Shown here: positions 4,238 to 12,840 of the stretch, in pieces | Layout of the letters: the number at the start of each line of letters is the position of its first letter | How positions within the stretch are numbered: position 1 is the stretch's first letter | DNA from: an uncultured Clostridia bacterium | GTDB lineage: Bacteria > Bacillota > Clostridia > TANB77 > CAG-508 | Length of the DNA stretch: 43,886 nucleotides | Assembly (NCBI GenBank): GCA_944393275.1 | Contig: CALXZQ010000002.1 | Location: 1-43,886 of the forward strand | Reading direction: 5' to 3' | The notes under the pieces: model-generated | What the model saw: the letters and a program-made list of their open reading frames with translations, nothing else | Databases searched by the model: none | Told to the model about the DNA's origin: nothing | Position numbers and translations under genes: made by a program

Positions 4238-5068
4238 TTACACTTCAAAATTTTCAAGTTCTTGTATAAATTGATAGGCACATTTTTGTATTTTTGTTCC
4301 TAAATCAATTACAATTTTCGGATCTCCTTTAGCCCATTTTGTAATATAGTTAAAACTGCAAAGTGATGTATCTAAATTAAAATTATCTGCTACTATATAT
4401 GCAATGGATTCGACAAATACTTCTGATAGATTTCTGTCTGTTTTATAATCAAAATTATCATATAATCCATGTGCAAGTTCATGAAGTAACACAGAAGCTT
4501 TATCATCAATAGAAAGTGATTTCTTAATCACAATTTCATTTTCTTTTGGACTATAATAACCTTGTACAGTACCATTGAGCTCCTTCTCATATACTGGGAA
4601 TTTACTAAATCTTTTTAATTTCTCATAAAACTCATTCATATTATTAGTATCTAGTCTAGTAGTTTGCATTGGTATTGGTTCACCTAAAGTTTGTGATATA
4701 TCATAAACATATACATATCTGTATGCATTATATTCAATAGTCTTAGTTGTTTCTACTTCTTCCCCATCAACTATATCTATAACTTTTTTATTATATTTTC
4801 TATGCAATGGTGCAATAATAAAAATTTTTTTTGCATCATTTATAATTTCTCTTTTTAATTTTAACCATTTAGCTTTTCCTGCCACTCTTGTGGCATCTGG
4901 AAATTGACTAAAAATTAAAACGAGGTTATTAAAACTATAACCTCTAAAATTTTTCTGAAACTTTAAGAACTTCTTATATTCCCCACTATCTACAATGGCT
5001 TGTACATTTAGTACAACTCTTTCAAAAATTTCTTTTGTCTTATTTTCCTTATTCTGTTTATTATACAT
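4238..5068 (-). CDS. ArdC-like antirestriction protein (ssDNA-binding N-domain plus zincin protease motif)
   Basis: YSFNNLVLIFSQFPDATRVAGKAKWLKLKREI resembles the ArdC N-terminal domain. HELAHGLYD is an HExxH metalloprotease motif. Confidence 0.7.
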   Translation of the reverse strand: MYNKQNKENKTKEIFERVVLNVQAIVDSGEYKKFLKFQKNFRGYSFNNLVLIFSQFPDATRVAGKAKWLKLKREIINDAKKIFIIAPLHRKYNKKVIDIVDGEEVETTKTIEYNAYRYVYVYDISQTLGEPIPMQTTRLDTNNMNEFYEKLKRFSKFPVYEKELNGTVQGYYSPKENEIVIKKSLSIDDKASVLLHELAHGLYDNFDYKTDRNLSEVFVESIAYIVADNFNLDTSLCSFNYITKWAKGDPKIVIDLGTKIQKCAYQFIQELENFEV

Positions 5069-5071
5069 AGC

Positions 5072-6526
5072 CTAAGCAGCTCCTTTCAATACATTTTGTT
5101 CCCATTTATATAAAAATTGTAATTGCTTTTCATTAGGAGCATCATTATTTTTTATTCTACTTTGTACAACTTTGCTATTCTTTACTTCAACAGTAACAAG
5201 AGATTTGTTTTGATTTTTAATATCTCTCATTAAGTAAATATCACAAATACCACTCGCATATTTTTCTGCATATGTTTGTACACAATTGTTTTGTTGTATA
5301 CTTTCATTTTTCAGCTCTTTTAATGATTTAGCAGGAAAAATAATAAATTTATCATTTTGATATTTGTTTATTAATAATTTTTTACTTCTTTTTATAATTG
5401 CTTTTTGGATAGCTTTTTCATTTTGAATTTTGTATAGTTGTTTCAATTTATCATGTTCTTCCTCTAGCTTTTTAGGAAAAGCATATCTGTTATTTTTTAA
5501 ATCAAATCCAAGAAGTTTTGCAAATCTTAAATAATCTTTATATATGTAAGTTCGTATTTTTCCACGATGCATTTTAGAATATTTAATAAAACGATTTAGG
5601 CTAATATAATTTGAAATTTCTTCTAAGTCATCAATATTATCTCCATAGTGTATAAATTTTTCTAAATACCTTATTTTTTGAATATTTTTTTCTTTTAGTA
5701 ATCTTAAGATTTTTAATTGCCTATATGTTATATTGTTTCTACGCATAAATGGATAAAAATCTTTTGAAACACCAAAACTTTCTTGAAATGAACCATTATC
5801 ATAGAATCTATTTGCACTTAATGCTAAATTATATAATTTCATTTTTGTTAAAAGTTCAACTTTATGTATATCATATTTATGTTCTAATAAACTTGATAAA
5901 TCAATATAAGTAGAATGTTTTGCTAAATTCCATATACAAGAATATTTATATTCTGTATTTTTTAATATACTTTTTAAGTTATTTGAAAAAACTATCGAAT
6001 AGTCAATTAGTGAATAATTCCTTATATATTTTCTCCATTTTGTTGGATCAAAATAATAACTATGATGGATATAATTATAGCATTGACATCTTGAAACTCT
6101 ATCATTTACAAAGATTTCTCTATAATAACTTTTATTTATTATTTCTCTTGCAAACTCAACTACAGAAGAATGATGTTCATGAAGATTATCTATAATTGTT
6201 TTCAATTCAAAATATCTAATTACAAATGTATCATCAACTATATCTAAAATAGATAAGTAATCCTTAAATTCATAAGATTTTAGATTACTTCTTTTAATTA
6301 AATATTTATTATGACAGTTTGGACATTTTATCTCTTCATTTATCTTTTTTGCGCTAATGAATTGATGATGACAATTTGTACAAAAACATTTATTTTTTCT
6401 TGATTTTATAATTAAGTTATGATTTATTTCTTGTTTTTTTACAAAATTATTCCATCCTTTAGGAGGATATGGAGAATCGTCTAAAATTCTAAAAATTTTT
6501 TTATATGCAACTTTTACATAACCCAT
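5072..6526 (-). CDS. PcfJ-like protein
   Basis: 484 aa. N-terminal Cys4 ribbon (CFCTNCHH...CPNCHNKY). The C-terminal NNCVQTYAEKYASGICDIYLMR...LVTVEV block resembles the PcfJ family of Gram-positive conjugative plasmids. Confidence 0.6.
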   Translation of the reverse strand: MGYVKVAYKKIFRILDDSPYPPKGWNNFVKKQEINHNLIIKSRKNKCFCTNCHHQFISAKKINEEIKCPNCHNKYLIKRSNLKSYEFKDYLSILDIVDDTFVIRYFELKTIIDNLHEHHSSVVEFAREIINKSYYREIFVNDRVSRCQCYNYIHHSYYFDPTKWRKYIRNYSLIDYSIVFSNNLKSILKNTEYKYSCIWNLAKHSTYIDLSSLLEHKYDIHKVELLTKMKLYNLALSANRFYDNGSFQESFGVSKDFYPFMRRNNITYRQLKILRLLKEKNIQKIRYLEKFIHYGDNIDDLEEISNYISLNRFIKYSKMHRGKIRTYIYKDYLRFAKLLGFDLKNNRYAFPKKLEEEHDKLKQLYKIQNEKAIQKAIIKRSKKLLINKYQNDKFIIFPAKSLKELKNESIQQNNCVQTYAEKYASGICDIYLMRDIKNQNKSLVTVEVKNSKVVQSRIKNNDAPNEKQLQFLYKWEQNVLKGAA

Positions 6527-6942
6527 TATTTTTGCACCTCCTGAAATAGTGTAATTTGATTATCTTCTAATTGTTTTTCTTCAGATATTTTTTCTTTATT
6601 TGTTTCTTCTTCTTTTGTCTTTTTCTTATTTGCTTTCTCTACTACTTCTGCAGGTGTAGTGAGTATGCCTTTTTTAGACTTTATTCCTAATTCATCATTA
6701 CTTTTTAAAAAATAATTAATAGCCCATGTATAAACAAGTTTGTCTGCCACCATTGCTACATTGTTCTTTGATTTTTGCTTTGCTTTACTACATATGTAAT
6801 CGTACATTTCTTGAATAGATTTTTCTTCATTATTGAATTTTTCATATAAGTCAATTCTTGTTTTTAAATACTCAAAAATTGAAGAAACATTGTAATCGTT
6901 CATTTCTAGCACTTGCATTTGCAATTTTTCTATTCCTTCCAT
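6526..6942 (-). CDS. PcfK-like protein
   Basis: 138 aa, directly upstream of and overlapping the PcfJ-like gene. Its size, N-terminal helical region and Lys/Glu-rich tail resemble PcfK-like proteins. Confidence 0.5.
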   Translation of the reverse strand: MEGIEKLQMQVLEMNDYNVSSIFEYLKTRIDLYEKFNNEEKSIQEMYDYICSKAKQKSKNNVAMVADKLVYTWAINYFLKSNDELGIKSKKGILTTPAEVVEKANKKKTKEEETNKEKISEEKQLEDNQITLFQEVQK

Positions 6943-6962
6943 AACAGTTCTCCTTTCAGTTT

Positions 6963-7355
6963 TTATGATACTTTTTTAAACCTTTTAAAAATCTCATTTT
7001 CGTTTTTTTCAATTTTCATATATAAGTTGTATTTATTTAATCCATATTTATTGATTTTATTTTGTTTTTCATTTTGCACAGCAGCTAATACACTTTCTAG
7101 TTCAGTAAAATCATAAAAATAACAAATAAGGCCATCTTTTACAATGACCTTATCTCCAACATAATCTTTTATAATATTAAATCTATAATTATATTTTTTC
7201 TTTCCTAGATGATCAGCTATTCTGATACCACAAGAAAGTCCATAATCAAGTTTTAGATATATTGAACTGGTAGAATGTGCATTATATTGATGTACTATAA
7301 AGCCTATAGAAATTAATCTTCGAGTTAAATTATCTGCAATTTCACTACCATTCAT
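6963..7355 (-). CDS. Hypothetical protein
   Basis: 130-aa ORF in operon context, start overlapping the upstream stop. No motif recognised with confidence. Confidence 0.5.
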   Translation of the reverse strand: MNGSEIADNLTRRLISIGFIVHQYNAHSTSSIYLKLDYGLSCGIRIADHLGKKKYNYRFNIIKDYVGDKVIVKDGLICYFYDFTELESVLAAVQNEKQNKINKYGLNKYNLYMKIEKNENEIFKRFKKVS

Positions 7356-7630
7356 TATGCTACCTCTTTCTCTACTTGACTACTTTGTAAATACTTTTGC
7401 TTGTCAATCTTTTCTGTGATTAATTTTAAACTTGCTTTTATAAATTCTACTTTGTCCTCTGGTATATCTATTTCTGACACTCTTGCAATTTTTTCTCCAT
7501 GTGCAGTAGGAGCAGCTACTAAATCTCCTATTTTTACTGGTATAGCTGTATAATAACTATATGCTTTACCACCAAATGTTTTAGGCACAAAATTGTCTTC
7601 GTATTTTACACTTATAATATTGGTTACCAT
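7355..7630 (-). CDS. Hypothetical protein
   Basis: Track ORF 7355..7654. An internal ATG at 7630 follows GGAGGATAAATAGT and sits just after the upstream stop. Confidence 0.5.
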   Translation of the reverse strand: MVTNIISVKYEDNFVPKTFGGKAYSYYTAIPVKIGDLVAAPTAHGEKIARVSEIDIPEDKVEFIKASLKLITEKIDKQKYLQSSQVEKEVA

Positions 7631-7631
7631 A

Positions 7632-7973
7632 CTATTTATCCTCCATTTCTTCATAATAATCTTTTAATTCTTCATATAATGAATCTTTTCTCTGTAATAC
7701 ATAAAATCCTAACATTGGATGAATGCTAATTTTAATTACATCATCTTTATTAGGATATGTTTTATTAATTTCTTCAATTAACATTGTTGCTTCATTAACT
7801 ATAAATTCTATCTCTTCTTCATCAATTTCATTTTTTGGATTATGTACATATTCAATTTGTTCTTTTAAATTTTCAATTACATCCTTAACTTTTCCAATAA
7901 TCGACTCATCATCATTTTTTAAGAACTTGTCAGAACATATTTTATTAAAATACTTATTTATTAATTCTTGCAT
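7632..7973 (-). CDS. Hypothetical acidic protein
   Basis: Track ORF 7632..7979 (TTG). The ATG at 7973 follows GGAGGTTGGTT. Confidence 0.5.
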   Translation of the reverse strand: MQELINKYFNKICSDKFLKNDDESIIGKVKDVIENLKEQIEYVHNPKNEIDEEEIEFIVNEATMLIEEINKTYPNKDDVIKISIHPMLGFYVLQRKDSLYEELKDYYEEMEDK

Positions 7974-7995
7974 AACCAACCTCCACTAAAATTAT

Positions 7996-8418
7996 TTAAA
8001 ATGGTAAATCATCACCATTAGAAATAAATTCTTCAGATGTGTTTTTCTCTTTTAGTTCTTCGCTAACAACTTCTTGTGTATTATCTTTTTCTACTTTCTT
8101 AAAACTATCTGCTAAATATATTTCCTCAGCGACAACTTCAGTAACATATCTTTTTATACCATTTTTATCTTCAAAATTTCTATTTTGTAATCTTCCTGAT
8201 ATGCACACTTGAAGCCCTTGTTTTAAATATTTTTCTACAAATTCTGCAAGTTTAGAATAAGAGACAACATTAAAGAAATCTGCTTGTCTTTCTTCTCCTA
8301 CTTTGGTAAATCTTCTGTTTACAGCAAGAGAAAAAGTGGCTATTTTCATATCATTCGTTTGTGAATACTTTATTTCAGGTGCTTTTGTTAACCTACCCAA
8401 TAATATTGATTTATTCAT
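7996..8418 (-). CDS. ssb: Single-stranded DNA-binding protein
   Basis: OB-fold N-terminus (ILLGRLTKAPEIKY...FFNVVSYSKLAEF...GRLQNRNFEDK) and the canonical acidic tail ending DDLPF. Confidence 0.9.
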   Translation of the reverse strand: MNKSILLGRLTKAPEIKYSQTNDMKIATFSLAVNRRFTKVGEERQADFFNVVSYSKLAEFVEKYLKQGLQVCISGRLQNRNFEDKNGIKRYVTEVVAEEIYLADSFKKVEKDNTQEVVSEELKEKNTSEEFISNGDDLPF

Positions 8419-8437
8419 ATCTTAATCTATCCTTTCT

Positions 8438-8719
8438 CTAATCTTTTCTAATAACTATAAATTTAATTATACTTTCTGTTATTCTATAGATCCTTTCAAG
8501 TTCTCTTATTGAATTTTCTAATCCTTCAAATTCTATTAAATAATAATAGCCATAGCTGTTCCCTTTAATTTCATAAGCCAATTTTTTCTTACCTAATTCT
8601 TCAGCTTTTAAAATATTTCCATTAATCGAAATATAATCTTTTATTGTTTTAACTACTTTATTTTTTTCTTCCTCTGTAATTTCTTCCTTCATTATAAAAA
8701 TAGTTTCATATTCTCTCAT
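8438..8719 (-). CDS. Ribosomal protein bS6 paralogue
   Basis: 93 aa. MREYETIFIMKEEITEEEKNKVV...LGKKKLAYEIKG...GYYYLIEFEG...ITESIIKFIVIRKD follows the bS6 pattern (compare B. subtilis MRKYEVMYIIRP...WGKRRLAYEI...IIRHIVV). It lies immediately upstream of ssb, as in the chromosomal rpsF-ssb arrangement. Confidence 0.75.
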   Translation of the reverse strand: MREYETIFIMKEEITEEEKNKVVKTIKDYISINGNILKAEELGKKKLAYEIKGNSYGYYYLIEFEGLENSIRELERIYRITESIIKFIVIRKD

Positions 8720-8735
8720 ATCAATACTTCCTTTC

Positions 8736-9152
8736 TTATGCTACTAATTTAAAGATTTCTTCTTTATTTCTTTTAGCATTTTTTTGTTTTATTTTTCTTT
8801 GATTTGAATAAAGTTCTTCCAAAAAGTCCTCTTTGTAACTATTTATTTTCTTTTGGTGTTTTGATAGCTTAAATATATTACTAAACTTTCTTATATCTTT
8901 CTTTTTCATAGATACTATGTGATTATTTTTAATTGAAACTACTATAAAAGTGCCTAAAATAATATTTCCTCTAAAAATCCTATTAAATTCATCATTTGAA
9001 GCATTTTCATTTGCTATAATTACAGTATTATTATTTATCTTAAATTTCTGTAATTCTTCTCCTATTAATGCTTTTATAAATTTTATACTATCTGGTATTT
9101 TAACCTTTTGTACTTCTTTTCCTGGCATTACTAATAAACATTTAATTCTCAT
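8736..9152 (-). CDS. DUF3846-like protein
   Basis: 138 aa. The pattern MRIKCLLVMPGKEVQKVKIPDS...LIGEE...ANENAS...GNIILGTFIVVS resembles DUF3846 proteins of conjugative elements. Confidence 0.45.
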   Translation of the reverse strand: MRIKCLLVMPGKEVQKVKIPDSIKFIKALIGEELQKFKINNNTVIIANENASNDEFNRIFRGNIILGTFIVVSIKNNHIVSMKKKDIRKFSNIFKLSKHQKKINSYKEDFLEELYSNQRKIKQKNAKRNKEEIFKLVA

Positions 9153-9211
9153 ATGTATTTCCCTCCGTTTCTATTTATAAGAAAAAGACAGATTTCTCTG
9201 CCTTTGCTTAA

Positions 9212-10978
9212 TTATGCAGCTTGTTTAATATCTACTGCATTGTTATAATAATCTGTAATACTTAATAAACTTCCTTTTTCAACCTTAGATATTAAAAGTT
9301 GGGTATTATTAGCATATTCTTCAATAAAGTCATAATCTGCACAAGACTCATAATCATCAATAAAGATTGGAAATTTGGTTCTAGCAATTTGATTAAACAT
9401 ATTTGCAAATTCTAAAGCTGTAGCAATAGTTTCGGACCTTGAAAGATCGCATAATGAATGATTTTTATATGTTATTATAAAATCTTCTTTTATTTCTCCT
9501 GTTGTTTTAAGAACAGAATAAAATTTAATATCTACATTTTTTAAATATTGTTTTGCTAGTTTCATTTTTTCTTCAATATATGAAATATATAGTTTTTGTG
9601 CTATTTTTCTTGCCTCTTTTAATTCTGTAATATATTTATTTTGTATAATAATTTGTTTATTGAAATTAAAAATATCTCTTTTAGCACTTTCAATATTTTT
9701 TTGTTTTATAGCAACTTCTGTATTAAATCTTTCTATCTCTTTTTGTTCTAATTCTAATTCCTTGATGTTTTCTTGAATATTAGCAATTTTTTTACTATTA
9801 TCTATACTTGTATCTCCACCTAGTGCATTATATTGACATCTTTCAATTGCTAGTTTTAATTTTAAGTCTTTTTTCTTAGTCTCTAAAGTATTTTTTCTAT
9901 TGAAATCGTTTGTTAAGTCTTTTCTCATATTAATAATAGTTTTTTCTTTTGACGTATCTTGTATATGTTGTTCACAAGTAGGGCAGATACAATCTTTGCC
10001 ATTTTTTATTGCCAAATACTTTTGTTTACCTATTTTCATATTCTTTTCAAGTTCTTCAATTTCTGTTGATATATTTAGAATTTCTTTTTCTAAATCTTCT
10101 ACTTTCTGTTTTTGATTTTCTTTATTTTTAATTTGTTTATCATTAGATAATGAATCCAATTCTTGATATGCAAGCGAAAGTTCAATATCTTTCTCAAATT
10201 TTTTAGCTTCAGGTATTGCTTCATTTACAATATTCTGTGCATATTCTATTTTTCCATAAAGAGAATTTATGTAACTTTCTGCACTTTTCATATTTTGATT
10301 TAATTCAGTAATGTAACTTGGCATATCTCTTGGAATGCCCTCTAAGATTCTTTGTTCCTCTTTACCTAAGTTATCATACGCCATATCCATAAAGATATTT
10401 AATATGTGTGTATTTACAAATTCTTCTTGCTCTTTCTCTGGTAAATTGTAAAATGATTTTTTATCTTTATTGTATCTATCTAAAAGTTTATTTTGTTCTT
10501 GATTATCTAAGTGTGTAAATATTTCATAAGGTTTTATATCTGACAAATATTTATCTACCATCTCCTTCTGTTCTGCAGTTTTTTTACTTAAAAAGTAGAT
10601 TGGATTTATAATAGATAAAAACAACTTTTTATCTTTATAAAAGCTACTAAGCTCATTTTGTGTTACTGGCTTTCCATCAAGTGTAAGAAAATTATTTTTA
10701 GTTCCAATTCTGCTTTTACCTCGAACTAATATATGCTTAATTCCTTTATTATCAGTAAAGTGTAACTCACCATAGGAAGCATCACAATTTTTATTGATTA
10801 AACATGCTTTTTCATCACCTGATAAATTAGTTCCAAGCATTATATTAATAATTGCATAAAGTATATTACTTTTTCCAGACCTGTTCTTTCCAGTAATAGT
10901 TGTTACATCATAGAGTTCAGTTTCAAATATTTTTTCAAATTTTCTAAACCCTATAGTCTTCACATAATTAATTTTCAT
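9212..10978 (-). CDS. Rad50/SbcC-like SMC-family ATPase with CxxC hook
   Basis: Walker A GKNRSGKS, a long coiled coil and a central DCICPTCE (9971-9994). The C-terminus carries the signature LSRSE and Walker B PIFIDDYE. Confidence 0.75.
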   Translation of the reverse strand: MKINYVKTIGFRKFEKIFETELYDVTTITGKNRSGKSNILYAIINIMLGTNLSGDEKACLINKNCDASYGELHFTDNKGIKHILVRGKSRIGTKNNFLTLDGKPVTQNELSSFYKDKKLFLSIINPIYFLSKKTAEQKEMVDKYLSDIKPYEIFTHLDNQEQNKLLDRYNKDKKSFYNLPEKEQEEFVNTHILNIFMDMAYDNLGKEEQRILEGIPRDMPSYITELNQNMKSAESYINSLYGKIEYAQNIVNEAIPEAKKFEKDIELSLAYQELDSLSNDKQIKNKENQKQKVEDLEKEILNISTEIEELEKNMKIGKQKYLAIKNGKDCICPTCEQHIQDTSKEKTIINMRKDLTNDFNRKNTLETKKKDLKLKLAIERCQYNALGGDTSIDNSKKIANIQENIKELELEQKEIERFNTEVAIKQKNIESAKRDIFNFNKQIIIQNKYITELKEARKIAQKLYISYIEEKMKLAKQYLKNVDIKFYSVLKTTGEIKEDFIITYKNHSLCDLSRSETIATALEFANMFNQIARTKFPIFIDDYESCADYDFIEEYANNTQLLISKVEKGSLLSITDYYNNAVDIKQAA

Positions 10979-11187
10979 ATTTTCATTTTCCTTTCTCGGT
11001 TATAAGACTTTCGTAAATATTGTGGTAAAATCCAATCTTCTGTACCATCCTTAAATTTTACATGAAAATCTTTAAAGTATGAATCACGTTCAAGTATTAT
11101 TGCTGATATATTTTTATAGACTTTACCATCATTTTGTCCAGGACCATATACAAGAACCTTACTACCTTTTTTGAATTTATTAAACAT
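10975..11187 (-). CDS. Small hypothetical protein
   Basis: 70-aa ORF whose stop overlaps the ATPase start (translationally coupled). Confidence 0.5.
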   Translation of the reverse strand: MFNKFKKGSKVLVYGPGQNDGKVYKNISAIILERDSYFKDFHVKFKDGTEDWILPQYLRKSYNRERKMKI

Positions 11188-11313
11188 TGTATATAATCTC
11201 CCTTTTAAAATTTTTGTTCAATATTGACTTTCTATTTTTTATTTGTTTTAATATAAAAAAGTTAATATGATTGAAAAAATAAATAGTAGTGTAAGAGTGT
11301 TATTAGTACATAC

Positions 11314-12463
11314 TTATACTGCTACTTTTTTTAGCATTTTTTCAACAAATTCTAGTTTCATTGCAAATTTTCTCTCTCCTATTTTACTGATTCCCAATCT
11401 AACAACTGTTCCTAAATCACATTGTGCAAGTTCTTCAGCATCTTCTGGTCTTATTACAATATTACTTATTTTATCTTCTACATCTGCGAACTCTCCTATT
11501 AAATATTCTTTTGATTCTCCCTTTTTATTTACTAAAGTTTCTACTGTTGTGCTTAGCAATACATAACAATTTTTTAGTTGTTCATTTGAATTTATATTAT
11601 CATCTTTTTGTGCATTTCTATTATCTTCTTCTGATTCTTTAGTTTGCTTTGTTTCTTGATTATTTTCCGTTTTCTTAGTAGTTTTTCTTTTCGTTGTAGT
11701 AGACTTTAGGCAATTTCCTGGCGCAGTATCTCTGTTTAATGCTGTATTTTGTTTGATATTGTTAATAACTTCTTGCTTCATTGCCTTACTATTCACATTT
11801 TCATCATTATTTGTATACACTTTTATTGTATTTTCTATTGTTCTTGGAATTTGTTTTATAGATTTAAAATCTTCTGTTTTTAAAATATCTAAGACATAAT
11901 TATTAAAAGTTTGACCTAAACTATTATACTGTTCAATTTGTTTTAAAAATATAGTATAATGCCCTTTAATTGATTTTCCTTGTGCTTTTTGTAATTTAAT
12001 ATAATCATCTAATATATTTATTGATGTTTGTCCTGTTATCTTCATTAGAAATATGCGGTCAGTACTGATGCTTGGTATTAAAAATTTAAGCCAGCCTATT
12101 CGATTACAGGCACATTTTCCTTGTTCATTTTTTTGTCTGTATTGGCAACTATATGTATCACAATCTATTTGCTGCCATCCGTTTTTTACTCTTTGCATTG
12201 CTTTATTTGAATCTTCTGAGCAATGACATACTTCCCCACTTTGATTATATCTAACATACTTTTTAGATAATGGCTCTTCACAAAAAAACTCAATATCAAT
12301 ACTTTGCTTTCCTTTAAATAATTCATCAAACTTTTTTAAATATGCTTGCATATGGTTTTCATGTGTTTTTGCTATAAAATATCCATATTCGATTACTTTA
12401 TTTTTGATTTTTTCTCCATGTTGAACTCTACCGTATAATCGGTAAATTTACTAATTGCTTCAT
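11314..12463 (-). CDS. Cys-rich hypothetical protein; frame changes +1 at CGG 12431-12433
   Basis: The ATG at 12463 follows GGAGG and gives MKQLVNLPII, then CGG TAG. The +1 frame from GGT continues GRVQHGEKIKNKVIEYGYFIAKTHENH into track ORF 11314..12351. Confidence 0.55.
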
Positions 12464-12480
12464 TTTTATTTCCTCCATTT

Positions 12481-12840
12481 CTATGCAGCTACTAATTCTT
12501 GCATACAATATTGTTTTTCTACTAATTTACTTAAGTCTATTTTATAAATAGGATAAATACTTGCTTCAATAACACATATTCCTGTTTGTTCCTTAATAAT
12601 TCCTAGATTTTTTAATTGTGGTATTAAAGTAGGTTTATATTGACAATTCACTATAATTTCATCTTCCTTTAATACTTTATTTGTGTCTAGAGTAATTTCT
12701 GCTAAGTGTGCCGTTTCGTTTGTTTCTGGATCAATTCCAAATAAACTTAATTGTAAATTTCCGTTTTTATACATTGAGCTATGGATAAAACAATTTTTGA
12801 ATATTATTTCGTATAGTTCAAAATTAAAACCACTTTTCAT
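12481..12840 (-). CDS. DUF4313-like protein
   Basis: 119 aa with SD GGAAGGAG. The pattern YKNGNLQLSLFGIDPETNETAHLAEITLD...YPIYKI resembles DUF4313 of conjugative elements. Confidence 0.45.
   Translation of the reverse strand: MKSGFNFELYEIIFKNCFIHSSMYKNGNLQLSLFGIDPETNETAHLAEITLDTNKVLKEDEIIVNCQYKPTLIPQLKNLGIIKEQTGICVIEASIYPIYKIDLSKLVEKQYCMQELVAA

What the first reader, a model, noticed from the sequence alone, without database searches (positions are those of the whole stretch)
7996..8719. Element-borne paralogue of ribosomal protein bS6 coupled to ssb
A 93-aa ORF follows the bS6 sequence pattern along its whole length and sits directly upstream of ssb. This mirrors the conserved chromosomal rpsF-ssb-rpsR arrangement, but rpsR is absent and the pair lies inside a conjugative element. 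It may be a by-product of ssb capture. It could also be a functional ribosome-modifying or bS6-mimicking protein, which is notable given the CGG frame-break pattern and the S1-repeat protein at 24097-24891.
Basis: partly seen in the sequence, partly recalled or inferred. Interest (0 to 1): 0.6.

Follow-up and report, generated by a model that had tools for sequence, protein, structure and literature searches.

The report
Conjugative-element copy of ribosomal protein S6
A conjugative element of an AT-rich chicken-gut Clostridium carries its own intact, selectively maintained copy of ribosomal protein bS6 next to its ssb gene; the pair is an old capture from a chromosomal operon, and the copy still looks able to bind ribosomal protein bS18.

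Summary
ORF 8438-8719(-) is a full-length bS6 homologue (Pfam 84.8 bits; predicted fold TM 0.95 to B. subtilis bS6). It lies 19 nt upstream of ssb, there is no rpsR, and it sits inside a Gram-positive-type conjugative element.

- **Not a recent host copy.** It is 43-47% identical to the genus's chromosomal rpsF.
- **One old capture.** Element S6 genes form one clade, and so do element ssb genes. This fits a single ancient co-capture of rpsF+ssb from an rpsF-ssb-rpsR operon.
- **Recurrence.** The DUF3846-S6-ssb block recurs in at least 13 related elements. Some of them sit in genomes that also keep the chromosomal operon.
- **Selection.** dN/dS is about 0.34, similar to its neighbours and to chromosomal rpsF.
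- **bS18 face kept.** The predicted bS18-binding face is the best conserved part. A complex model with the genus's bS18 passes its controls.
- **Accessory.** One relative keeps ssb without S6, and one has lost both.

My best reading is an alternative bS6 that pairs with host bS18; ribosome entry is inferred, not shown. I found no support for a link to the CGG frameshifting or to the "S1" gene. This MAG's own rpsF operon lies in an assembly gap.

The scan found this feature before on other DNA (e1-2478402 and others). My independent tests agree with those notes.

The parts
8438..8719 (-). Element-borne bS6 paralogue, 93 aa
   Evidence: Pfam PF01250 84.8 bits over the full length. TIGR00166 74.9 bits. 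AF2 model pLDDT 92.4 with a b-a-b-b-a-b fold. TM 0.95, rmsd 1.0 A to B. subtilis bS6 9fy1_f.
8727..8734 (-). Shine-Dalgarno-like AAAGGAAG upstream of the S6 start; the DUF3846 stop codon TAA is at 8736-8738
   Evidence: Read directly from the sequence.
7996..8418 (-). Element ssb, 140 aa, with a C-terminal DDLPF tail
   Evidence: PF00436 107.9 bits. TIGR00621 108.6 bits. 51-57% identical to chromosomal ssb of the genus. Element SSBs form one clade, 99/82.
8736..9152 (-). DUF3846 gene, directly upstream of S6 and the conserved partner of the block
   Evidence: PF12957 37.8 bits. 63-72% identical in related elements, always directly upstream of the S6/ssb position.
9184..9205 (-). Terminator-like hairpin between the SMC-like ATPase gene and DUF3846; a possible sub-operon boundary
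   Evidence: Consensus scan only; function not shown.
9212..10978 (-). SMC/RecF-like ATPase with a coiled coil, syntenic upstream neighbour
   Evidence: Weak AAA_15/AAA_29, ASRP and RecF hits. 47-76% identical in related elements.
4238..7979 (-). Downstream co-directional genes: DUF6933-like (7632-7979), 99-aa (7355-7654), 130-aa (6963-7355), PcfK (6526-6942), PcfJ (5072-6526), ArdC-like (4238-5068)
   Evidence: Pfam hits. The same order is found in G017, G355, G346, G310 and in metagenome loci.

Best explanation
The ORF is a genuine, intact paralogue of ribosomal protein bS6. It belongs to a DUF3846-S6-ssb block in the DNA-handling/establishment operon of a family of conjugative elements that live in very AT-rich gut Clostridia (here, chicken gut). 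rpsF and ssb were taken together, once and long ago, from a Firmicute-type rpsF-ssb-rpsR operon. rpsR was left behind, and the pair has since been inherited with the element. Purifying selection has kept the protein. It folds as bS6 and retains the beta-sheet face that binds bS18. The most likely mode of action is therefore as an alternative bS6: when the operon is expressed, it pairs with host bS18 and is built into, or competes for, the platform of newly assembled 30S subunits. It is an accessory part of the element, not an essential one. Shown here: family membership, fold, context, single origin, selective constraint and a conserved interface. Inferred: bS18 binding in cells, ribosome entry, and any benefit to the element.
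For: Family and fold. Context: the same order (SMC-like ATPase, DUF3846, sometimes an S6-domain fusion, S6, ssb, then PcfK, PcfJ and ArdC) is found in G017, G355, G346 and G310. It is also found in metagenome loci L066-L070 and L075 and in G425 and G455, which were found with DUF3846 and not with S6. G017, G355 and G346 also carry a separate chromosomal rpsF; G310 also shows two S6 matches, but I did not locate or inspect the second one. G310's element copy lies inside a one-contig 1.57 Mb genome. Every chromosomal locus complete enough to judge reads rpsF-ssb-rpsR or rpsF-rpsR; a few short or end-cut loci lack part of it, and none has DUF3846. Origin: 11 element S6, including one from the distant element L095, form one clade (UFboot 87, SH-aLRT 84) inside the Firmicute-type set. 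9 element SSBs form one clade, 99/82. The window copy is 43-47% identical to the genus rpsF. Selection: NG86 median dN/dS is 0.34 for element S6 (22 pairs), against 0.28 for element ssb, 0.26 for DUF3846 and 0.27 for chromosomal rpsF. Site-wise entropy of element and chromosomal sets correlates (Spearman 0.56). bS18 face: a complex model of window S6 with the genus's bS18 scored ipSAE 0.86, against 0.00 for the best of 3 controls. That mark was reached by 58 of 80 solved complexes and 2 of 110 mismatched pairs. The runs agree in 100% of their contacts and the partner's pLDDT is at least 91. The pass may come from memory of solved ribosomes. The modelled interface residues (7, 9, 42, 45, 47-49, 51, 59, 61, 86-88, 90) are the most conserved part of the element clade: entropy 0.54 against 1.23, permutation p 0.0017, and the consensus is identical to the chromosomal one at 10 of 14 positions. 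By contrast, the tandem S6-domain fusion protein of some relatives has lost these invariants (A48D, Y59H, K86F, F87N). [quoted passage not shown]
Against: There is no direct evidence of expression or of ribosome incorporation. bS6 is not among the loosely bound, exchangeable proteins that Mizuno et al. name (bS21, bL12, bL9, bL31, bL33), so it could enter only newly assembled subunits. The gene is dispensable: G436 has DUF3846-ssb without S6, and G034 lacks both. Helix alpha-1 has a different consensus at 12 of 18 positions. The N11-P12, K20, E56 and P68 residues that are conserved in chromosomal copies are changed or relaxed, and net charge moves from a median of -3 to a range of -2 to +4. 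Some of the conserved 'interface' residues are also fold-core residues. The NG86 estimates are made at partly saturated dS in a 26% GC genome, so only the comparison between genes is meaningful.
Confidence: 0.6

Rival explanations
1. Recruited fold: the protein no longer works in the ribosome. The S6 (ferredoxin-like) fold now serves the element itself, for instance by binding SSB, transferred single-stranded DNA, RNA or another element protein.
For: Elements diversify the fold. A 213-215-aa protein with an S6-like N-domain (42-48 bits) and a conserved novel C-domain sits beside S6 in G017, G455, L068, L069 and L070. L095 carries two S6-like genes flanking ssb. Helix alpha-1 and several loops differ from chromosomal bS6, and the charge is less acidic. 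S6 was never seen without ssb on these elements. Note e1-2478402 of this scan reached this reading on other DNA.
Against: The 93-aa copy keeps every family invariant and the whole modelled bS18 face, whereas the fusion copy lost them. It scores above NCBIfam's equivalog cut-off for S6. The complex model with bS18 passes its controls. No partner other than bS18 was tested.
Confidence: 0.22
2. Passive hitchhiker: rpsF came along with ssb and persists only as operon filler, for example to keep ssb translated. Its protein has no function of its own.
For: The gene order copies the chromosomal operon, and the two trees are congruent. S6 is lost without visible harm in G436 and G034. Its dN/dS is the highest of the three neighbours.
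Against: It is intact in all 14 or so element copies at 45-60% amino-acid identity. The one exception is a low-coverage contig with an indel. Its dN/dS of 0.34 is close to the 0.27 of chromosomal rpsF. Constraint falls on the same sites as in bS6. ssb in G436 follows DUF3846 directly, so ssb does not need S6 in cis. In G355, S6 is intact while ssb is interrupted.
Confidence: 0.12
3. It is this organism's only bS6: the chromosomal rpsF was lost and the element copy took over.
For: The window copy is the only PF01250 match in the assembly.
Against: S18 and the canonical ssb are missing too. The assembly is 91.7% complete in 142 contigs. G000 contigs C57 and C118 are syntenic with G008:C16, and C118 ends about 1.1 kb before the place where G008 has rpsF-ssb-rpsR. 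The next 4 kb of G008 are also unmatched. G011 and G036 likewise lack both a chromosomal-type rpsF and rpsR. Relatives that carry the element keep a chromosomal rpsF.
Confidence: 0.03

Closest known systems
Chromosomal rpsF-ssb-rpsR operon of Firmicutes (bS6, SSB, bS18)
   Same: Same two gene families in the same order and with tight spacing. Same fold and the same family invariants (YE, G-K-K-LAY, GYY, ELER-YRI, KFI). The element clades nest inside the Firmicute-type chromosomal set.
   Different: No rpsR. The pair is embedded between DUF3846 and PcfK/PcfJ/ArdC genes of a conjugative element. It is only 43-47% (S6) and about 51-57% (SSB) identical to the host genus's copies. It forms a separate clade and is present in only a few per cent of genomes.
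Virus-encoded ribosomal proteins (Mizuno et al. 2019, PMC6375957)
   Same: A ribosomal-protein gene carried by a mobile genetic element and kept under purifying selection. The paper names bS6 among the proteins enriched in phages of animal-associated bacteria. A phage-context S6 also occurs in this genus (G011).
   Different: The carrier here is a conjugative element, not a virus. The gene is coupled to ssb and comes from an operon capture. No close homologue was found in INPHARED phages, PLSDB plasmids or PHROGs. Ribosome incorporation was shown only for viral bS21 and bL12, not for bS6.
ssb-containing leading-region / establishment modules of conjugative plasmids (Samuel et al. 2024, PMC11541004)
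   Same: A co-directional block with ssb, an ArdC-like anti-restriction candidate, a Y-family (UmuC-like) polymerase and many small unknown genes.
   Different: That paper does not mention ribosomal proteins (0 occurrences). I could not establish the transfer polarity, and so the leading-region status, of this block.

Membership tests
Ribosomal protein bS6 (Pfam PF01250 / NCBIfam TIGR00166) | Full-length profile match above the curated cut-offs | tested here: met
   PF01250 84.8 bits against a cut-off of 27, profile 1-90/90. TIGR00166 equivalog 74.9 bits against 42.9.
Ribosomal protein bS6 (Pfam PF01250 / NCBIfam TIGR00166) | b-a-b-b-a-b (ferredoxin-like) S6 fold | tested here: met
   AF2 pLDDT 92.4. 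Foldseek TM 0.95, rmsd 1.0 A to B. subtilis bS6 in the 70S ribosome; the top 50 hits are all bS6.
Ribosomal protein bS6 (Pfam PF01250 / NCBIfam TIGR00166) | Forms a heterodimer with bS18 | tested here: inconclusive
   In silico only. ipSAE 0.86 against 0.00 for the best control; the mark was reached by 58 of 80 solved complexes and 2 of 110 mismatched pairs; contact agreement 100%; partner pLDDT at least 91. The pass may reflect memory of solved ribosomes. Interface residues are conserved.
Ribosomal protein bS6 (Pfam PF01250 / NCBIfam TIGR00166) | Physically part of the 30S platform | not testable with these tools
   Needs ribosome purification and mass spectrometry.
Ribosomal protein bS6 (Pfam PF01250 / NCBIfam TIGR00166) | Orthologue of the host's rpsF (chromosomal rpsF-ssb-rpsR context, host-like sequence) | tested here: not met
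   No rpsR. Conjugative-element context. 43-47% identity to the genus rpsF. Separate clade. It is therefore a paralogue, not the housekeeping gene.
Mobile-element-encoded ribosomal proteins (sensu Mizuno et al. 2019) | A ribosomal-protein gene inside a bona fide mobile element and conserved among related elements | tested here: met
   Synteny in at least 13 related elements.
Mobile-element-encoded ribosomal proteins (sensu Mizuno et al. 2019) | Purifying selection after transfer | tested here: met
   Median NG86 dN/dS 0.34, comparable to its neighbours and to chromosomal rpsF. This is a crude method and dS is partly saturated.
Leading-region (early-entering) genes of conjugative elements | Located on the first-transferred side of oriT and expressed early in the recipient | not testable with these tools
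   oriT and transfer polarity are unknown. Only the gene content (ssb, ArdC-like, Y-family polymerase) resembles such regions.

The most novel reading that the evidence does not exclude
The element S6 is an adapted platform protein. Paired with host bS18, it changes the solvent-exposed helix face of the 30S platform. In Bacteroidia, bS6, bS18 and bS21 form the pocket that holds the anti-Shine-Dalgarno tail of 16S rRNA (abstract of PMC9976891). The element S6 could thereby bias initiation, or the lineage's CGG +1 shifting, in favour of element genes during establishment. Alternatively, the S6 fold, together with its tandem fusion derivative, has become a new ssDNA/SSB-associated factor of conjugation.
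Probability: 0.12. Interest if true: 0.8.

Novelty: new variant of a known kind. Interest (0 to 1): 0.5.

Why it matters
Ribosomal-protein genes on mobile elements have so far been described for viruses. Here a core assembly protein of the 30S platform, not one of the loosely bound exchangeable proteins, has been kept for a long time by conjugative elements, always together with ssb. If it enters host ribosomes, conjugative elements as well as phages can re-equip the host's translation machinery. If it does not, the S6 fold has been recruited to DNA transfer, which would also bear on why rpsF and ssb are linked on so many chromosomes. There is also a practical point. In MAGs, such element copies can stand in for a missing marker gene, as in this assembly, where the element copy is the only S6 match.

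Tried and rejected
The contexts of the 120 database homologues could therefore not be read directly. I used genome and metagenome loci instead.
- **Genome-contig scan** with the single protein gave one chromosomal locus only.
- **First metagenome scan** gave nothing. The viral-contig scan gave two distant phage-type S6 genes.
- **PLSDB and INPHARED** tblastn gave only distant hits of 42% identity or less. The PLSDB ones are mostly annotated as rpsF on large replicons or misfiled chromosome pieces.
- **PHROGs** has no family matching the S6.
- **Rfam** gave no match in the window or upstream of chromosomal or element rpsF, so an S6:S18-binding leader could not be invoked.
- **Patatin-like neighbour** as a synteny anchor for the missing chromosomal operon was a false lead, because the neighbourhood differs. 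The G008 synteny worked instead.
- **Expression:** no RNA holder was listed among the sequencing runs.
- **Laying contigs of four runs** showed no variant letters inside S6, so it says nothing about short-term selection.
- **Fusion protein's C-domain:** the ESM Atlas gave no usable hit. Its AF2 model is only of moderate confidence (pLDDT 55-80) and I did not search with it.
- **Hopping ~120-aa ORF and other small neighbours:** Pfam found nothing.
- **Literature:** searches for a conjugative-element bS6 returned nothing relevant.

Full report
**What is there.** The window is a whole 43.9-kb contig (C2) of a 1.18-Mb MAG of 142 contigs, 91.7% complete. Window GC is 25.7% against 27.6% for the genome. 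Nearly all genes lie on the minus strand.

ORF 8438-8719(-) encodes 93 aa. It matches Pfam Ribosomal_S6 over the whole profile (84.8 bits, E 4.9e-24) and the NCBIfam S6 equivalog (74.9 bits against a cut-off of 42.9). Nineteen nucleotides after its stop starts ssb (7996-8418, PF00436 107.9 bits, DDLPF tail). Sixteen nucleotides before its start ends a DUF3846 gene (8736-9152). Each gene has its own Shine-Dalgarno-like sequence. An AlphaFold model (pLDDT 92.4) has the b-a-b-b-a-b S6 fold. It superposes on B. subtilis bS6 in the 70S ribosome with TM 0.95 and rmsd 1.0 A. The best sequence matches among solved structures are Listeria, Bacillus and Staphylococcus bS6.

The surroundings are those of a Gram-positive-type conjugative element: coupling protein, T4SS pilin, M23 peptidase, SpaA/thioester adhesins, PcfJ, PcfK, an ArdC-like protein, a Y-family polymerase and sigma factors.

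**Is it the host's own rpsF?** The window copy is the only S6 match in the assembly. S18 is absent from the assembly. Apart from the window's ssb, the only SSB-family gene is a tandem-OB protein on C13.

In the genus, 22 of 26 species representatives have a chromosomal rpsF scoring 103-110 bits; the window copy scores 83.8. Every chromosomal locus complete enough to judge reads rpsF-ssb-rpsR, or rpsF-rpsR outside the Firmicutes; a few short or end-cut loci lack part of it.

G000 contigs C57 and C118 are collinear with G008:C16. C118 stops about 1.1 kb before the point where G008 has rpsF-ssb-rpsR, and the following 4 kb of G008 have no counterpart in G000 either. Two other genus MAGs (G011, G036) also lack both a chromosomal-type rpsF and rpsR. 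The housekeeping operon is therefore most probably in an assembly gap. I give the idea that the element copy is the cell's only bS6 about 3%.

**A conserved module of an element family.**
- G017 (same genus) has both the chromosomal operon (L027) and a second locus (L025). The second locus reads SMC-like ATPase, DUF3846, a 214-aa protein with an S6-like N-domain, S6 (94 aa), ssb, then the same small genes, PcfK, PcfJ and ArdC as in the window.
- An order-wide search of 401 genomes found 14 with two or more S6 matches. The three best non-self hits are all second copies with the same synteny: G355, G346 and G310. G310's copy is inside a single-contig 1.57 Mb genome.
- A metagenome scan added L066-L070 and L075. 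It also added L095, a distant relative of the element with two S6-like genes flanking ssb.
- In these loci the split is clean. An S6 that matches the window copy best has DUF3846 upstream (except the short contig L075 and the distant L095), the element-type ssb downstream (except L095, whose ssb scores closer to the chromosomal type), and never S18. An S6 that matches the chromosomal copy best is followed by S18 wherever the locus is long enough.
- A search blind to S6, using DUF3846 on 151 genomes of the family, found four more elements. G425 and G455 have S6 and ssb, G436 has ssb but no S6, and G034 has neither.

S6 is thus a frequent but dispensable member of the block, and I never saw it there without ssb.

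**Origin.** The window S6 is 43-47% identical to the genus's chromosomal rpsF and 52-59% identical to other element copies. In a maximum-likelihood tree of 108 S6 sequences, eleven element copies, including one from L095, form one clade (87/84). That clade nests in the Firmicute-type chromosomal set. In the SSB tree, the nine element copies form one clade (99/82). Congruent single clades for two adjacent genes are best explained by one old co-capture of rpsF+ssb, followed by inheritance with the element. In a broader tree of database homologues, 69 of the 120 best clusters fall on the element side, so the family is large.

**Selection and functional surfaces.**
- All element copies are intact, apart from one low-coverage contig with an indel.
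- Median pairwise dN/dS (NG86, pairs with dS 0.15-1.2) is 0.34 for element S6. It is 0.28 for element ssb, 0.26 for DUF3846, 0.27 for chromosomal rpsF and 0.16 for chromosomal ssb. The absolute values are rough in so AT-rich a genome, but the comparison shows ordinary purifying selection.
- Site-wise variability in element and chromosomal sets correlates (Spearman 0.56). All family invariants are shared: Y4, E5, G34, G43, L47-A48-Y49, Y59, F64, E73-R76, Y78-I80 and K86-I88.
- A complex model of the window protein with the genus's bS18 supports binding. ipSAE is 0.86, against 0.00 for the best of three controls. The mark was reached by 58 of 80 solved complexes and 2 of 110 mismatched pairs. 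The runs agree in 100% of contacts and the partner's pLDDT is at least 91. Because S6:S18 is solved many times, this pass may be memory. It shows likeness, not binding.
- The modelled interface lies on the beta-sheet face (residues 7, 9, 42, 45, 47-49, 51, 59, 61, 86-88, 90). It is the most conserved part of the element clade: entropy 0.54 against 1.23 elsewhere, permutation p 0.0017, and the same consensus as chromosomal bS6 at 10 of 14 positions. Some of these residues also belong to the fold core.
- The tandem S6-domain fusion protein of some relatives has lost exactly these invariants (A48D, Y59H, K86F, F87N). This shows what relaxation of that surface looks like.
- Differences from chromosomal bS6 concentrate in the b1-a1 loop (N11-P12 lost), in helix a1 (consensus differs at 12 of 18 positions) and at E56 and P68. 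The protein is also less acidic.

**Mechanism.** My best reading (about 0.6) is that this is a working bS6 isoform. It is made from the element's operon, pairs with host bS18 and is assembled into new 30S platforms, or at least competes there. The benefit to the element is unknown. The precedent is Mizuno et al. 2019: viruses encode 14 ribosomal proteins under purifying selection, bS6 is named among those enriched in phages of animal-associated bacteria, and bS21 and bL12 were shown to enter ribosomes.

Points against this reading:
- bS6 is not one of the exchangeable proteins named in that paper.
- The gene can be lost.
- The helix face has changed.

The main rival (about 0.22) is that the fold has been recruited for the element's own DNA or RNA handling, as the fusion derivative and the double copy in L095 suggest. 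A pure hitchhiker (about 0.12) fits the losses but not the site-specific constraint. It also does not fit G436, where ssb does without S6 in cis, or G355, where S6 is intact while ssb is interrupted.

S6, ssb and DUF3846 contain no CGG codon. Earlier notes of this scan describe CGG +1 shifting as a trait of the whole host lineage, whereas extra S6 copies occur in about 3.5% of genomes. The paralogue therefore cannot be required for the shifting. I did not test the CGG claim myself. The "S1-repeat" protein has a single marginal S1/OB hit below the Pfam cut-off. It lies beside the relaxase and coupling-protein genes, where OB-fold relaxosome auxiliaries are known (PMC12614216). No Rfam leader or other RNA family was found.

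**Habitat and novelty.** The stretch is held by metagenome runs of about ten studies, mostly from chicken gut; five of the runs may be the source of this DNA. No close homologue occurs in PLSDB, INPHARED or PHROGs. My literature searches found no description of a conjugative-element bS6. The scan itself has noted the same feature on several other genomes, and one follow-up (e1-2478402) reached a similar verdict. My trees, selection estimates, S6-blind census and bS18-interface analysis are independent of those notes and agree with them. I class it as a new variant of a known kind, namely ribosomal-protein genes on mobile elements, and as moderately interesting.

Noticed in passing
L025:2734-3378 (G017); also L151:826-1470, L068:3954-4601, L069:4342-4986, L070:4341-4982: A 213-215-aa protein sits between DUF3846 and S6 in five related elements; it is absent from the window. 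It has an S6-like N-domain (Pfam 42-48 bits), a disordered linker and a conserved C-domain of about 90 aa with no Pfam, PHROG or Atlas hit. It has lost the bS18-face invariants. In the tree its N-domain groups with the phage-type S6 of G011, but the branches are long.
   Followed up: partly
L095:4188-5285 (human-gut metagenome contig): A distant relative of the element carries two S6-like genes flanking ssb: S6' of 107 aa (56 bits), then ssb, then S6 of 94 aa (89.6 bits).
   Followed up: partly
L026:8143-8430 (G011:C13): A divergent 95-aa S6 homologue (64.7 bits) lies in a phage-like context (large terminase with an intein, dUTPase) in a genome of the same genus. Two IMG/VR contigs (L064, L065) also encode 135-aa S6 homologues.
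   Followed up: partly
L148:2316-2549 (-) (G012:C19): A stand-alone, divergent S18-like ORF (77 aa; PF01084 62 bits) has no S6 or ssb beside it. The genome, 97% complete, gave no S6 match at all.
   Followed up: no
L061:10788-11350 (G355:C4): The element ssb appears interrupted: an N-terminal piece at 10788-10901 and the rest from 10991. The adjacent S6 is intact. This could be an assembly artefact.
   Followed up: no
L150:1115-1480, L061:10404-10766, L062:10850-11212: A ~120-aa ORF starting MKYKTF, with no Pfam family, changes position within the block. It lies before S6 in G425 and between S6 and ssb in G355 and G346.
   Followed up: partly
window 5072-12840 (-): Five proteins of the operon end in -AA or -VA: 5072-6526 ends GAA, 7355-7654 ends EVA, 8736-9152 ends LVA, 9212-10978 ends QAA and 12481-12840 ends VAA. 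S6 (RKD) and SSB (DDLPF) do not.
   Followed up: partly
G000:C13:5586-6182 (L003/L004): Apart from the element ssb, the only SSB-family gene in the assembly is a tandem-OB protein of about 233 aa.
   Followed up: no
window 9184-9205 (-): A terminator-like hairpin lies between the SMC-like ATPase gene and DUF3846, followed by a strong GGAGGG ribosome-binding site. DUF3846-S6-ssb may be a separately tuned sub-operon.
   Followed up: no
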